A stretch of 64,000 nucleotides of DNA from Acidobacteriota bacterium (GTDB taxonomy: Bacteria; Acidobacteriota; UBA6911; RPQK01; JAJDTT01). The notes beneath the pieces were generated by a model. That model saw nothing but the letters and a program-made list of their open reading frames with translations. It had not been told where the DNA came from and made no database searches. A program made the translations under genes and the position numbers. The stretch is from contig CBDCJH010000002.1 of assembly GCA_965217775.1 (NCBI GenBank), positions 3,072,001 through 3,136,000 on the forward strand, read 5' to 3'. Every line of letters begins with the position of its first letter. Position 1 is the stretch's first letter. Positions 2,592 through 64,000 of this stretch are shown here, one piece after another.

Positions 2592-2755
2592 TATCAGCCC
2601 GTGGCAAAAGTCGTCACGGCATTCGACCGTCCCTGCATCCCGGCGGACTGCGTTGCGATTCGGTCACATACTCACGGTATGCTCCCTCATCGCGCCTTGT
2701 CCGGCGGGCGCAGGAACGGTCTCGGTGCTCGCGGGACTTTCACCACGGACTGCTA
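2592..2755. mobile_element. MITE-like 164-bp repeat, TA at both ends, intact copy
   Basis: Imperfect terminal inverted repeats TAtCAGcCCGTGGcaAAAGTC / GACTTTcaCCACGGaCTGcTA; whole element folds as a long hairpin; near-identical partial copy at 62806-62897; right TA is part of the stop codon of the adjacent gene. Confidence 0.85.
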
Positions 2756-61051: not shown

Positions 61052-62753
61052 AGGCGCTCCTCATGAAGAAGCTTCGTTTGCTGGGCAAACGGCTGTTCCA
61101 CGGCCCGGAGTTCGCCTCGCTGCTTCGACGATGCGGCATCGAGCCCCACCGATACTGGATCCTGGTCGATCTGTTCGAGACGCTTGGCAAGCGGCAGGAA
61201 GTGACTCGGATGGGTTCCGACGCCTACACCATGCGCAGCTTCACTATCTTCTGGGTCTTTCTTTCTGGCGTATTGGGCGTCGTGATGGGAGCTCTCGGCT
61301 CCACCGCCGGAGTCTACCTCCTGGTCTTTCTCGCGCTCACCGCTTTCCAACTCAGCATGCTGCTGATCCCCGAGATCGCCGAGGGACTCGTGAACCCGGT
61401 CGAGGGGCTGATTCTGGCTCATCAGCCGGTCAACGGCGCCACTTGGTTGGCCGCCAAGCTGACCCATCTCATCAGGATCGTCGTCTACGTGGTGGCAGGG
61501 GTCAACGGCCTGCCGGCGCTCGTTCCCTTCTCGGTCCCAGCGGAGAAGGTTTCCGGCCATTCGTTTACCCCATCATGCATCTTCTGACGGCTCTCGGGGT
61601 CGGGCTGGTGGTCGGGTTCCTCTGTTGCAGCCTCTTCGGATGGTTGGTTCGCTTCGTTCCCGTCCGGCGGCTCAAGGCGGCCGCGGCCATGGCCCAAGTC
61701 ATCCCCATGCTCATTGCGCCGGGTATTCAGTTCTTGAGTGCGTCGGGTGCGTTGGTGAACGAGTTGCCGTGTTGGTTCATGTCCATCGAGCCGCCCGAAG
61801 CCTGGCTCGGAATCGGCGGCGCGGTTCCCGGGGGCTTCCCGGTTCTCCTGGCTGTGGTGGCCTTTGCTCTCACGACGGTCGCCGTCGTACCAGGTCTGCG
61901 GGCACTCTCCGTGGATCATCTGATCCGGGTATCGAGTCTGATGCATTCAGGTTCCAGGGTACGCAGGCGGGTACCGAAAGGATGGTCGATCGGGCCACGG
62001 ATCGCCAGGTTCGCCGGCGGTCAGGCCGCCCGCGCCGGTTACGAGTATCTGCGCTCAATGGTTTTGAGAGACTGGCAGTTCCGGAAGAACATGGCCATAA
62101 ATGCGCCGTATCTGTTCATCGGCCTCATCGTCCTGCTCGTTGCGGGCACTGAAACCACTCCATTTGCCACCGACTTCGCCTTCACTCACTTTCTGCCTCA
62201 TCTGATCGGAACGACGATTTTCTTCACTTGCCTCTACCTGGGGTATGGCAACGACTACAAGGCGGTCTGGTCGTTTACTATCGTTCCGGACTCTTCCTTC
62301 CGGCCGTTCGTGAGGGGAATCCATGCCGGACTCTGTTTCCTGCTGGTGGCCGTTCCCAACTTCTTCTGCCTTCTCGTGCTGGCTTGGTCCTGGGGCGTCA
62401 GAGATGCGCTGTGGGTCATCGCTTTCAGCACCGCCGTCGCCTCCCTGTATTTGGCAGTCGGCCTCAGACTGATCGACGGGCTCCCCTTCGGAAAACAGAC
62501 CCCGCCCGCTCGGCAGGTAATAACGTTAGCGATGACGATGATTTACCTCGTGGTCCTAAGTGTGGCCATCGGGATCCATTACCTCGTATTCCGTTCCGTG
62601 GTGGCGGTTGCCGCTGTGACGATCATCGTAAGTGTTGGGGCCTGCTTTCTGACGAGAGCGACGCTGGCCGATTTCGAGTCCCGTATTCGGCGCAGCCTGA
62701 ATCCGGGTGCGGTACGACAGTTTCTTGCCTTCGTCGAACAGAAAACGGAGTAG
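61048..62753 (+). pseudogene. Large ABC permease-like membrane protein, frameshift near 61530
   Basis: ORF 61048-61587 (LAHQPV...AAKL) continues in the frame of ORF 61131-62753 (RPFVYPIMHLL...); many TM segments. Confidence 0.75.
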
Positions 62754-62765
62754 ATGGGAGCACAC

Positions 62766-62807
62766 ATGAGACACGCATCCGTAACGTTGACAGTATTCGT
62801 ATTGTTA
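62766..62807 (+). pseudogene. 5' stub of a secreted-protein gene interrupted by a MITE
   Basis: RBS GGGAG, MRHASVTLTVFVLL, similar to MKHKSVTLTALVLF at 53103. Confidence 0.6.
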
Positions 62808-62897
62808 ACAGCCCGTGGTAAAAGTCCTCACGGCATTCGACCGTCCCTGCATCCCGGCGGACTGCGTTGCGACTCGGTCACATACTCCCGGTATGCT
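62806..62897. mobile_element. Left half of the MITE (copy of 2592-2683), interrupted by IS110
   Basis: Near-identical to 2592-2683; similarity stops exactly after GGTATGCT. Confidence 0.88.
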
Positions 62898-63238
62898 TGT
62901 CTGTTATTTCTTGTCTGTCTTTCTTCTTGGGGGGGTACAGATTGTGGTGTCAGCAAAAAGGGAGCACCCTGTGGGAAATCTTTGATTTTCCACAGGGGGG
63001 TTCCGGGTGACGAGGGGGCCTCGGGGCTCTCGTTTCAGGGATTTCAAGTGGGTATGTGTCTCTTTGCATCCGGGGGGTCTCAGGGGGGGCCGGCCCCCCC
63101 TGCCCCCGTCAACGCCGCCAGTGGCGACAGCAGGCGCAGGGCCGTGACCCAGCCATCGTCCAGGCTTGGCTCGGTGGCGCCGGCATGATTTCTGGTGGGT
63201 TATTCCGATACGGGTTGGGATCTTTTGGGAGGATCCAT

Positions 63239-63395
63239 CCGAGGCGCCTCTGGCCAGAGGCGCCTCGGCGGCGGTGGTCGGGCCGTTATGTATGCCGGCC
63301 GTCAAGGGCCGGGAGGGAGTGGGGCCGCCACCGTCTTTCCCAACGTCCTGAATGGATACGTGAGCGTCAAGGCTCGCACGACAAGCACAGGAGGA
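63239..63395 (+). ncRNA. Putative IS110 bridge RNA
   Basis: 5' 30-nt perfect palindrome, then two stem/internal-loop/hairpin modules, both capped by GTCAAG; loop guides match target and donor junction sequences. Confidence 0.82.
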
Positions 63396-63402
63396 AGGAA
63401 AG

Positions 63403-64000
63403 ATGACTCAGGATACCTCAAAGACGGTGGGTGTGGACATCTCGAAGGCGCATTTGGACGTGCACGAGTGGCCTTCGGGACGGTCGAAGCGGTTCCCCAA
63501 CGACACGGCAGGGTTCCAGGCCCTGGCCCGCTGGATCGGACCGGAGGTCCGGTGCGTGGTGTATGAGTCCACGGGCCCCTGGCACCGGGCGATGGAGGAA
63601 GCTCTGGCCGCTCGGTTGCCGCTGGCTCGGGTCAACGCGATGCGGGCGCGGCGGTTCGCGCAGGCGCTGGGCCAGGAGGCCAAGACCGACGCGGTGGATG
63701 CCCGGATCCTGGCCCGGATGGGGGAGGCGCTCCCGTTGCGGCGTGTGGACGTGTCCTCGCCCACGCAGCGCCAGTTGGAGGAACTGATCTCGGCGCGGGA
63801 CGGGCTGGTGAAGGATCGGACGGCGGCTCGCAACCGGAGCCACCACGCGCGCCACCCGATGGTGAAGCGGCATTTGCGACAGCGGCTGGCTCAGATTGAG
63901 CGCCAGATCCGGGCCCTGGACGGCGAGTTCCGCAAGTTGCTGAAAGCCGATCCGGCGCTGGCGCGCAAAGCCGAAGTGCTGACTTCGATTCCGGGAATGG
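63403..64000 (+). CDS. IS110 family DEDD transposase/recombinase (3' end outside window)
   Basis: Manual translation: MTQDTSKTVGVDISKAHLDV...VVYESTG...RVNAMRARRFA...AKTDAVDARILA...LTSIPG; RBS AGGAGGAAGGA. Confidence 0.95.
   Translation, partial: MTQDTSKTVGVDISKAHLDVHEWPSGRSKRFPNDTAGFQALARWIGPEVRCVVYESTGPWHRAMEEALAARLPLARVNAMRARRFAQALGQEAKTDAVDARILARMGEALPLRRVDVSSPTQRQLEELISARDGLVKDRTAARNRSHHARHPMVKRHLRQRLAQIERQIRALDGEFRKLLKADPALARKAEVLTSIPGM

What the first reader, a model, noticed from the sequence alone, without database searches (positions are those of the whole stretch)
62896..63402. IS110 bridge RNA programmed against a resident MITE; target, donor and handshake guides are readable
Seen: upstream of the IS110 recombinase is a hairpin (63239-63268) followed by two internal-loop modules with identical GTCAAG caps. 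In loop 1 the left strand ATGTATGC (63288-63295) matches the insertion flank GGTATGC(T) over GTATGC. The right strand GAGGGAG (63313-63319) is the exact reverse complement of CTCCCTC, which follows GTATG in the intact MITE at 2682-2688. In loop 2 the right strand GACAAGCA (63380-63387) is the exact reverse complement of the junction TGCTTGTC (62894-62901), i.e. CT core + TGTC plus two target-derived bases. The left strand AATGGATAC (63351-63359) would be the left donor guide. Established: IS110 bridge RNAs have target- and donor-binding loops, a short core (CT in IS621) and handshake bases pairing with the recombined product. Inference: this is a naturally programmed recombinase that uses a multicopy MITE as its landing site, with its own target/donor specificity (target GTATG-CT-CCCTC, donor (A)TGGATA-CT-TGTC).
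Basis: partly seen in the sequence, partly recalled or inferred. Interest (0 to 1): 0.9.

Follow-up and report, generated by a model that had tools for sequence, protein, structure and literature searches.

The report
IS110 bridge RNA aimed at MITE
This is a real RNA-guided IS110-type jumping gene whose guide RNA is readably matched to one spot inside a small repeated element of the host genome; it is a clean natural example of a mechanism described in 2024 rather than a new kind of system.

Summary
The element is a 1516-bp IS110-group insertion sequence with no terminal inverted repeats and a CT core on both sides. Its 317-aa recombinase has the DEDD and Transposase_20 domains. The genome holds four copies, 99.8-100% identical, all at the same position of a 158-bp MITE. 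The left end encodes a canonical bridge RNA: a 5' hairpin, a target-binding loop and a donor-binding loop. Thirty-five of its 42 base pairs show compensatory changes across 54 distinct homologues. The target-loop guides read GTATG-C(T)-CCCTC, the donor-loop guides read ATGGATA-C(T)-TGTC, and both handshake guides fit. In homologues the guides change together with the flanks. Right-target guides match in 28 of 34 distinct pairs, against a mean of 2.4 in permutations. The genome has 89 free perfect targets, all inside MITE copies. The MITE is genus-wide; this IS was found in 2 of 9 genomes of the genus. Verdict: interpretation supported, but this is a new member of a known kind. IS621 and ISPpu9/10 do the same with REP repeats. 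Activity and RNA ends were not shown.

The parts
62809..62897 (+). Left half of the interrupted MITE copy. The terminal inverted repeat starts CAGCCCGTGG. The 4-bp duplication TTAA lies at 62805-62808. The half ends with left target GTATG (62891-62895) and core CT (62896-62897).
62898..63402 (+). Non-coding left end (LE) of the IS, 505 nt. It starts with the right-donor bases TGTC (62898-62901).
   Evidence: the copies diverge from their flanks exactly here
62918..63215 (+). About 300 nt of extra LE sequence, missing in most relatives (LE about 180-230 nt). Its positions 23-177 have about 76-86% paralogues at four other loci. It holds an operator-like palindrome TGTGGGAAATC-TTT-GATTTTCCACA (62970-62994).
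   Evidence: function unknown
63239..63268 (+). 5' stem-loop of the bridge RNA (13 bp).
   Evidence: helix 1, 13 of 13 pairs with compensatory changes
63270..63335 (+). Target-binding loop module. Outer stem GGCGGUGG/CCACCGUC plus GGCC/GGCC. Inner stem CCGGCC/GGCCGG capped GUCAAG.
63290..63295 (+). Left target guide GUAUGC, identical to the top strand of left target GTATG plus core C. It would pair with the bottom strand.
63313..63319 (+). Right target guide GAGGGAG, complementary to the top strand CT-CCCTC.
63320..63321 (+). Handshake guide of the target loop, UG. The U pairs with donor position 7 (A of GGATA).
   Evidence: 46 of 49 distinct loop sets are complementary at this position
63346..63392 (+). 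Donor-binding loop module. Outer stem UCCUG/CAGGA. Inner stem GUGAGC/GCUCGC capped GUCAAG.
63352..63359 (+). Left donor guide AUGGAUAC, identical to the right end ATGGATA plus core C.
63380..63387 (+). Right donor guide GACAAG (complement of CT-TGTC) plus handshake guide CA (complement of target positions 6-7, TG).
63403..64000 (+). IS110 recombinase gene. It runs on to window-equivalent 64356 (317 aa). The IS ends at 64413 with ATGGATA-CT.
2595..2752 (+). Intact MITE copy in the same window (158 bp), flanked by the 4-bp duplication CTAT. It holds an unoccupied target GTATG-CT-CCCTC at 2677-2688, at the 3' foot of the apical hairpin CATAC-TCACG-GTATG.

Best explanation
Window 62898 to window-equivalent 64413 is an IS110-group insertion sequence. 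Its DEDD/serine recombinase is guided by a bridge RNA of about 160 nt, encoded in the left end just upstream of the gene.

Inferred mechanism, by analogy with IS621. The element excises as a circle, so its right end and left end meet at one CT (donor ATGGATA-CT-TGTC). The donor loop of the RNA holds that junction. The target loop holds GTATG-CT-CCCTC, a site at the foot of the apical hairpin of a 158-bp MITE. The recombinase exchanges strands at CT, and the two handshake guides pair with the swapped strands. The result is an insertion flanked by CT on both sides, always in one orientation inside the MITE.

Shown here: the anatomy, the complementarities, the same site for all copies, structural covariation, and guide-flank covariation in relatives.

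Inferred: circle formation, expression and processing of the RNA, and current activity.
For: Protein. PF01548 and PF02371 are both present. The protein aligns to IS621 (8wt6, E 8e-28) and ISCro4 (9t56) transposases. D12, E55, D96, D99 and S235 align with the residues that PMC11208158 calls catalytic, D11/E60/D102/D105/S241.

Copies. Four copies are 99.8-100% identical, all with intact ORFs, all at GGTATG-CT|...|CT-CCCTCAT in a MITE.

Fold. A 5' hairpin plus two internal-loop modules, z = -4.6.

Model R1. It found 63 matches, each just upstream of the IS110-type match that defined its locus. In 54 distinct rows, 88.8% of cells are paired, against 31-52% with slid partners. Thirty-five of 42 pairs show double changes, and 0 of 500 shuffles reach the observed values.

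Guide-flank covariation.
- The Azophilus homologue has target TTGAGG-CT-CGTGC, with guides UUGAGGCU and GCACGAG and handshake CC.
- A gammaproteobacterial homologue has right end ACGGATT-CT, with donor guide ACGGAUU and target-loop handshake A.
- Right-target guides match 4 or more bases beyond CT in 28 of 34 distinct pairs. Permutations give a mean of 2.4 and a maximum of 8 in 2000.
- Left-target guides match in 11 of 34 pairs, against a mean of 0.66 and a maximum of 4.
- Within the genus, three left-guide variants (GUCGCCG, ACCGCCG, ACCGACG) each sit next to their own matching flank.

Targets. There are 89 free perfect 12-mers, and all 89 lie inside MITE copies.
Against: - No circle junction, RNA 5'/3' end or recombination event was observed. 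Contigs of four runs showed no right-end-to-left-end joint.
- The junction would form only a weak sigma-70-like promoter (7 of 12, TTGCAA-17-TATTTC), against 11 of 12 in the Azophilus homologue. No promoter-like site was found in the LE.
- The left guides lack a U opposite the second core base.
- Only 5 bases of the left target are matched, fewer than the 7 of IS621.
- No Rfam family covers the RNA.
- Six of 34 right-flank pairs and 23 of 34 left-flank pairs fall below my strict thresholds. Causes include off-register loops, crude junction calling and possibly chimeric metagenome contigs.
Confidence: 0.93

Rival explanations
1. The structured left end is only a translational or stability leader of the transposase mRNA. 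Site choice would come from the protein recognising the MITE hairpin, and the loop-flank matches would be incidental.
For: The target's left arm is the 3' arm of a small apical hairpin. A preprint reports that such a hairpin adds specificity for ISPpu10. ISPpu9 has a regulatory structured 5' UTR (passages).
Against: Four independent complementarities lie in the expected loops and strands. The loops change together with the flanks in homologues, while the stems are kept by compensatory changes. Left flanks form a hairpin in 9 of 17 cases, not more often than shuffles (mean 7.0).
Confidence: 0.03
2. The element is a recently immobilised relic: the RNA and its guides are readable, but the IS no longer moves in this genome.
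For: Only 4 of 93 perfect sites are occupied. No circle junction was seen. The predicted junction promoter is weak.
Against: The four copies are 99.8-100% identical with 100% identical intact ORFs. A variant with a 72-bp LE duplication sits in two different MITE loci, which implies transposition after the variant arose. Contigs from RNA libraries cover the bridge-RNA region, though DNA carry-over is not excluded.
Confidence: 0.12
3. The co-location with the MITE reflects one ancestral insertion, copied together with the MITE by the MITE's own transposase, rather than repeated RNA-guided insertion.
For: All copies lie in the same repeat family. A MITE carrying the IS would keep its terminal repeats.
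Against: The four host MITE copies differ from one another at several positions and have different 4-bp duplications and flanks. The same site is used in another genome of the genus. This rival does not explain the loop complementarity.
Confidence: 0.03

Closest known systems
IS621 of E. coli (IS110 group): bridge RNA plus recombinase; PMC11208160, PMC11208158
   Same: Same protein domains and aligned catalytic residues. The RNA lies in the LE with a 5' hairpin, a target loop and a donor loop. The left guides copy the top strand and the right guides complement it. The core is CT. Handshake guides follow each right guide. The natural target is a multicopy palindromic repeat.
   Different: The match is distant: phmmer E about 1e-27, identity not computed. 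The left target guide reads 5 bases plus C rather than 7 plus CT. The right target guide reads CT plus 5. The LE is 505 nt. The target is a DDE-type MITE rather than a REP sequence. The host is an Acidobacteriota genome.
ISPpu9 / ISPpu10 of Pseudomonas putida; PMC12288879 (passages), bioRxiv 10.64898/2026.03.19.712850 (abstract and section 7)
   Same: These are IS110 elements whose copies all sit at one site of a multicopy repeat. In ISPpu10 the left target is the 3' arm of a stem-loop with a stem of about 5 bp. Here the equivalent is CATAC-TCNCG-GTATG followed by CT.
   Different: Their target is a 35-bp REP, not a 158-bp MITE with terminal repeats and a 4-bp duplication. A role for the hairpin is not tested here.
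ISCro4 transposase (PDB 9t56)
   Same: Best match among solved structures, E 6e-28.
   Different: Only sequence similarity was examined. Its RNA and target were not compared.
IS1111 group / seekRNA elements
   Same: The same recombinase family and the same RNA-guided logic (section 12 of PMC11208160).
   Different: In those elements the RNA lies downstream, in a long right end, with longer subterminal repeats. Here the RNA is upstream and the right end is only 57 nt.

Membership tests
IS110 family, IS110 group (bridge recombinase elements) | Recombinase with a DEDD RuvC-like domain and a Tnp domain carrying the catalytic serine | tested here: met
   PF01548 (E 1.5e-19) and PF02371 (E 8.1e-21). 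D12, E55, D96, D99 and S235 align with IS621 catalytic positions. The +2 offset of the chain numbering is my inference.
IS110 family, IS110 group (bridge recombinase elements) | No terminal inverted repeats; the same 2-bp core (CT) on both sides; long LE and short RE | tested here: met
   CT|TGTCTG...GGATA|CT; LE 505 nt, RE 57 nt after the stop codon
IS110 family, IS110 group (bridge recombinase elements) | Non-coding RNA in the LE with a 5' stem-loop and two internal-loop modules, conserved by covariation | tested here: met
   63 matches; 35 of 42 pairs with double changes
IS110 family, IS110 group (bridge recombinase elements) | Target-loop guides match the target: the left guide copies the top strand, the right guide complements it, and both include the core | tested here: met
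   GUAUGC and GAGGGAG against GTATG-CT-CCCTC. The left guide covers only the first core base.
IS110 family, IS110 group (bridge recombinase elements) | Donor-loop guides match the right-end/core/left-end junction | tested here: met
   AUGGAUAC and GACAAG against ATGGATA-CT-TGTC
IS110 family, IS110 group (bridge recombinase elements) | Handshake guides complementary to position 7 of the non-cognate DNA | tested here: met
   Here CA pairs with TG, and U with A. Across distinct loop sets, 38 of 43 and 46 of 49 are Watson-Crick.
IS110 family, IS110 group (bridge recombinase elements) | Guides covary with natural flanks across orthologues | tested here: met
   with its permutation controls
IS110 family, IS110 group (bridge recombinase elements) | Circular intermediate with a junction promoter | tested here: inconclusive
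   The junction gives only 7 of 12 promoter positions here, against 11 of 12 and 9 of 12 in two homologues. No junction contig was seen.
IS110 family, IS110 group (bridge recombinase elements) | The RNA is expressed and recombination depends on it | not testable with these tools
   Contigs of RNA libraries cover L098:486-972 and 633-788, but DNA carry-over is not excluded.
MITE (the landing site) | Short, non-coding, multicopy, with terminal inverted repeats and a target-site duplication | tested here: met
   158 bp; 277 BLAST hits, 205 of them end-to-end; 150 of 205 have identical 4-bp flanks (2 of 205 for 3 bp, 0 of 205 for 5 bp). It folds as a long hairpin, z = -4.95. No autonomous partner was identified.

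The most novel reading that the evidence does not exclude
Two selfish elements are layered here. A genus-wide MITE was found in 8 of 8 other genomes of the genus. It offers its apical hairpin as a combined sequence-and-structure landing pad to an IS110 that arrived later and was found in only 2 of 9 genomes. Only the MITE subfamily with a CT core and CCCTC is exposed (89 free plus 4 occupied sites). The subfamily with GTATG-CA-CCCGA (at least 84 copies) is refractory. The IS and the MITE subfamilies may therefore be co-evolving. A second IS110 in the same genome has been retargeted to a different hairpin repeat by a few loop substitutions.
Probability: 0.2. Interest if true: 0.5.

Novelty: new member of a known kind. 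Interest (0 to 1): 0.3.

Why it matters
This element is a fully readable natural bridge-recombinase system from a poorly studied phylum (Acidobacteriota). RNA runs labelled 'sponge metagenome' hold it. The target (12 bp), the donor, both handshake guides and 89 natural landing sites are all known from sequence alone. Close relatives in the same genus show retargeting by one or two loop substitutions.

That makes it a convenient candidate for an orthogonal bridge recombinase. It is also a small natural data set on how target loops evolve. It does not change the concept: the mechanism, the covariation and the preference for multicopy repeats are already in print.

Tried and rejected
- Rfam scan of 62000-64000 at E up to 10: only chance-level hits. 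One (MIR8670, E 5.1) overlaps the 5' hairpin. No bridge-RNA family matched.
- Sigma-70 promoter scan of 62700-63500: 0 sites.
- RNAalifold on 8 seed sequences gave a partly different structure. I replaced it with a structure derived from the single-sequence fold, and covariation then supported that structure.
- Run contigs: no joint from right end to left end, so nothing on circles. Contigs drop rare forms. The joint that skips 1516 bases is simply uninterrupted MITE copies, not excision. RNA-library contig depth is higher over the LE and bridge RNA than over the 3' part of the gene, while the two other runs (library type not on record, presumably DNA) are flat. The tool warns that contig depth is not a measure of expression and that DNA may be present, so I draw no conclusion.
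- A general 'left target lies in a hairpin' test on 17 distinct flanks: 9 of 17 against a shuffled mean of 7.0, not significant. Mean energy was -6.3 against -5.0 kcal/mol. One of the 17 flanks is an internal false junction.
- My first junction caller picked internal CTTGTC sites. It was corrected, but some loci (L020, L031, L036) may still be mis-called. That only lowers the match counts.
- The first handshake count used a faulty pattern and was replaced.
- The right ends of copies B3 and B4 of the second IS110 were not found within 2.2 kb.
- L010 has no recognisable right end.
- I considered sigma-54 and Bacteroidetes-type promoter readings of the LE module by eye and dropped them for lack of a match.
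The lists of predicted IS110 bridge RNAs in the supplements of PMC11208160 may already contain this element or its relatives.
- Searches for print coverage: IS110 + miniature inverted-repeat transposable + target site; 8 papers, and none seemed from its listing to describe an IS110 aimed at a MITE; IS110 + Acidobacteria + bridge RNA; 0 papers.

Full report
OBSERVATION

I read 62500-64000 and the intact repeat at 2500-2900. I then read the genome past the window end; the window is G000:C2:3072001-3136000. Every coordinate in the finding is correct.

- The 13-bp hairpin lies at 63239-63268.
- ATGTATGC lies at 63288-63295.
- GAGGGAG lies at 63313-63319.
- AATGGATAC lies at 63351-63359.
- GACAAGCA lies at 63380-63387.
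- The two GTCAAG caps are present.

The left junction is GGTATG-CT|TGTCTG, with CT at 62896-62897. It reads ...TTTGCAACATGGATA-CT|CCCTCATCGCGCCTTGTCC at window-equivalent 64404-64420. The uninterrupted MITE reads GGTATG-CT-CCCTCATCGCGCC. The element is therefore 1516 bp with one CT, with no terminal inverted repeats, and CT stands on both sides.

In 200,000 shuffles of the 178-nt region the four guide words never co-occurred. The product of their single frequencies is 3.7e-9.

THE ELEMENT

The ORF runs from 63403 to 64356 and encodes 317 aa. It carries PF01548 (DEDD_Tnp_IS110) and PF02371 (Transposase_20). It aligns to the solved IS621 and ISCro4 transposases at E about 1e-27. D12, E55, D96, D99 and S235 lie opposite the residues that Hiraizumi et al. 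give as catalytic.

The genome holds four copies, 99.8-100% identical, with identical intact proteins. All four lie at the same position and in the same orientation in four different copies of the same repeat.

THE LANDING SITE

The repeat is a true MITE.

- It is 158 bp long, with terminal inverted repeats CAGCCCGTGG.../...CCACGGACTG.
- BLAST finds 277 hits, 205 of them end-to-end.
- Identical 4-bp flanks occur in 150 of 205 copies, against 2 of 205 for 3 bp and 0 of 205 for 5 bp.
- It folds into one long hairpin with z = -4.95.

The target sits at the 3' foot of the apical stem-loop CATAC-TCACG-GTATG|CT|CCCTC.

The perfect 12-mer GTATGCTCCCTC occurs 89 times unoccupied, 85 on C2 and 4 on C1. 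All 89 lie inside MITE copies. So 4 of 93 perfect sites are occupied. A large MITE subfamily (84 copies of the commonest form) reads GTATG-CA-CCCGAATC and lacks the CT core. Another 18 copies read CT-CCCGA.

The MITE was found in 8 of 8 other genomes of the genus and in 0 of 6 of the sister genus searched. The A-type bridge RNA was found only in G000 and G007 among the 9 genomes of the genus. The repeat is therefore resident, and the IS looks like a later arrival.

THE RNA

The region 63225-63402 folds into a 5' hairpin followed by two internal-loop modules (-93.7 kcal/mol, z = -4.6).

Homologues came from genome contigs (12 loci) and metagenome contigs (80 loci). Eight seed sequences were aligned. 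From them I built covariance model R1.

R1 found 63 matches in 91 sources. Each match lies just upstream of the IS110-type match that defined its locus. On the 54 distinct rows, 88.8% of cells form pairs, against 31-52% when partners are slid. Thirty-five of 42 pairs show changes on both sides. No shuffle in 500 reaches the observed values.

As in the published family, the first loop is hypervariable and the second is conserved (compare the Extended Data legend quoted). In the own genome R1 finds 10 places:

- the 4 copies of this IS;
- 4 copies of a second IS110 (55% protein identity);
- 1 copy of a third (47%);
- 1 fragment.

READING THE GUIDES

The published rules come from passages of PMC11208160 and PMC11208158.

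- The left guides copy the top strand, so they pair with the bottom strand.
- The right guides complement the top strand.
- All guides include the core.
- The two bases 3' of each right guide are handshake guides. They pair with positions 6-7 of the other DNA after strand exchange.

Here the reading is as follows.

- Left target guide GUAUG+C, against GTATG-C(T).
- Right target guide GAGGGAG, against CT-CCCTC.
- Left donor guide AUGGAUA+C, against ATGGATA-C(T).
- Right donor guide GACAAG, against CT-TGTC.
- Donor-loop handshake CA, against target TG. Both bases pair, while the donor's own position 7 (A) would not.
- Target-loop handshake UG, against donor TA. The pairs are U-A and G-T.

One deviation stands out. 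The left guides have C or G where a U would pair with the second core base, and only five left-target bases are matched.

COVARIATION WITH FLANKS

- **Azophilus homologues (65% identity, 4 copies).** The flanks are GTTGAGG-CT...CT-CGTGC. The guides are UUGAGGCU and GCACGAG, and the donor-loop handshake is CC for target GG.
- **Gammaproteobacterial L007.** The flank is CACGCGTG-CT with guide CACGCGUG. The right end is ACGGATT-CT with donor guide ACGGAUU. The target-loop handshake has switched to A, opposite donor T. The right-target guide has one mismatch.
- **L010.** The target is GT and the handshake is AC.
- **All loci with usable flanks.** The right-target guide matches 4 or more bases beyond CT in 28 of 34 distinct pairs; 2000 permutations give a mean of 2.4 and a maximum of 8. 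A strict left-guide criterion (5 or more contiguous bases plus C) is met in 11 of 34; permutations give a mean of 0.66 and a maximum of 4.
- **Handshake positions.** They are Watson-Crick in 38 of 43 distinct loop sets (donor loop against left-guide position 7) and in 46 of 49 (target loop against donor-guide position 7).
- **Within the genus.** Variants of the second IS110 carry left guides GUCGCCG, ACCGCCG or ACCGACG. Most sit next to a matching flank; copy B2 differs from its guide at one base (GCCGCCG). These flanks are the 3' arm of a GC-rich hairpin repeat.

WHAT IS NOT SHOWN

No circle junction, RNA end or recombination event was seen.

- Contigs of four public runs were laid on the element.
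- Contigs from two RNA libraries of one study, labelled sponge metagenome, cover L098:486-972 and 633-788. That span includes the whole bridge-RNA region (L098:640-796). DNA carry-over cannot be excluded, and contigs show neither ends nor strand.
- The circle junction would give a weak sigma-70-like promoter here (7 of 12). It would give strong ones in two proteobacterial homologues (TTGACA-17-TTTAAT, 11 of 12; and 9 of 12).
- The LE is about 300 nt longer than in most relatives. The bridge RNA may be driven from inside the LE, but that is conjecture.

COMPARISON AND NOVELTY

The mechanism, the loop architecture, the CT core, the handshake guides, guide-target covariation over thousands of elements and the use of multicopy REP repeats are all published.

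- PMC11208160 and PMC11208158: passages.
- PMC12288879: passages on ISPpu9/10 and REP targets.
- bioRxiv 10.64898/2026.03.19.712850: abstract and section 7, on a target stem-loop of about 5 bp whose 3' arm is the left target.

The present element meets every sequence-level criterion of the family that I could test. What is particular to it:

- the host phylum;
- a DDE-type MITE rather than a REP as the landing pad;
- a short left guide with an incomplete core match;
- an expanded LE;
- a mobile variant with a partial LE duplication.

Two literature searches did not reveal an IS110 described as aimed at a MITE or in Acidobacteria. The supplements listing predicted bridge RNAs could not be read. 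I rate this a new member of a known kind, with interest 0.3.

Noticed in passing
G000:C2:5760216-5761803 and C2:6039611-6041198 (minus strand); not in the window: Two of the four IS copies carry, between the MITE's CT and the full IS, an extra 72-bp copy of IS positions 1-73. It has one G fewer in the G-run and ends in ...GCACC-CT. The junction CACC-CT|TGTC looks like recombination at an internal CT of the LE. Its flanks (GAGCACC / GTGGG) match neither target guide. The same variant sits in two different MITE loci, which suggests that it transposed as a 1588-bp unit.
   Followed up: partly
window 62918-63075; paralogues at C2:2787497-2787650 (-), 2789581-2789638 (+), 5717977-5718018 (-), 1886055-1886143 (+): Part of the extra LE sequence is 72-86% identical to four other loci. 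It includes the palindrome TGTGGGAAATC-N3-GATTTTCCACA and a block ...CAGGGATTT...TATGTGTCTCTTTGCATCC. Two of these loci face outward around a 2-kb segment that encodes a NucS_C-like protein. That segment lies among transposase fragments (DDE_Tnp_1_4, DUF772). The module may be borrowed from another mobile element.
   Followed up: partly
G000:C2:2744.7-2745.9 kb, 1161.5-1162.7 kb, 4662.1-4663.3 kb, 2679.0-2680.2 kb: A second IS110 has four copies, 55% protein identity, an LE of only 178 nt and an RE of about 415 nt. It has its own bridge RNA and inserts after a GC-rich hairpin repeat (GGCGNC-loop-GNCGCCG|CT). Two sub-variants differ in both target-loop strands. In one, the right-target guide seems to pair with a one-base bulge.
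   Followed up: partly
G000:C2:4367322-4368403 (minus): A third, single-copy IS110 (47% identity) has a weaker bridge-RNA match (61 bits) and a different donor loop. It lies directly beside, but not inside, a MITE copy (C2:4367010-4367174). Its ends were not determined.
   Followed up: no
genome-wide; e.g. window 2595-2752: The MITE has subfamilies that differ exactly at the IS target: GTATG-CT-CCCTC (89 free sites), GTATG-CA-CCCGAATC (84 copies of the commonest form) and GTATG-CT-CCCGAATC (18). Shorter derivatives of about 97 bp also exist (positions 1-52 plus 107-158). Duplications are mostly NTAN (TTAA 26, CTAG 19, ATAT 13). No autonomous partner transposase was identified.
   Followed up: partly
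G000:C2:5910872-5910962 (minus): A 91-nt partial match to the bridge-RNA model (E 5.9e-5) lies away from any IS110 gene hit. It may be a remnant.
   Followed up: no
L026:1290-1504 (metagenome contig): One homologue's bridge RNA aligns with most of its target loop missing or replaced (215 nt against about 180). It may be a disrupted or rearranged target loop.
   Followed up: no
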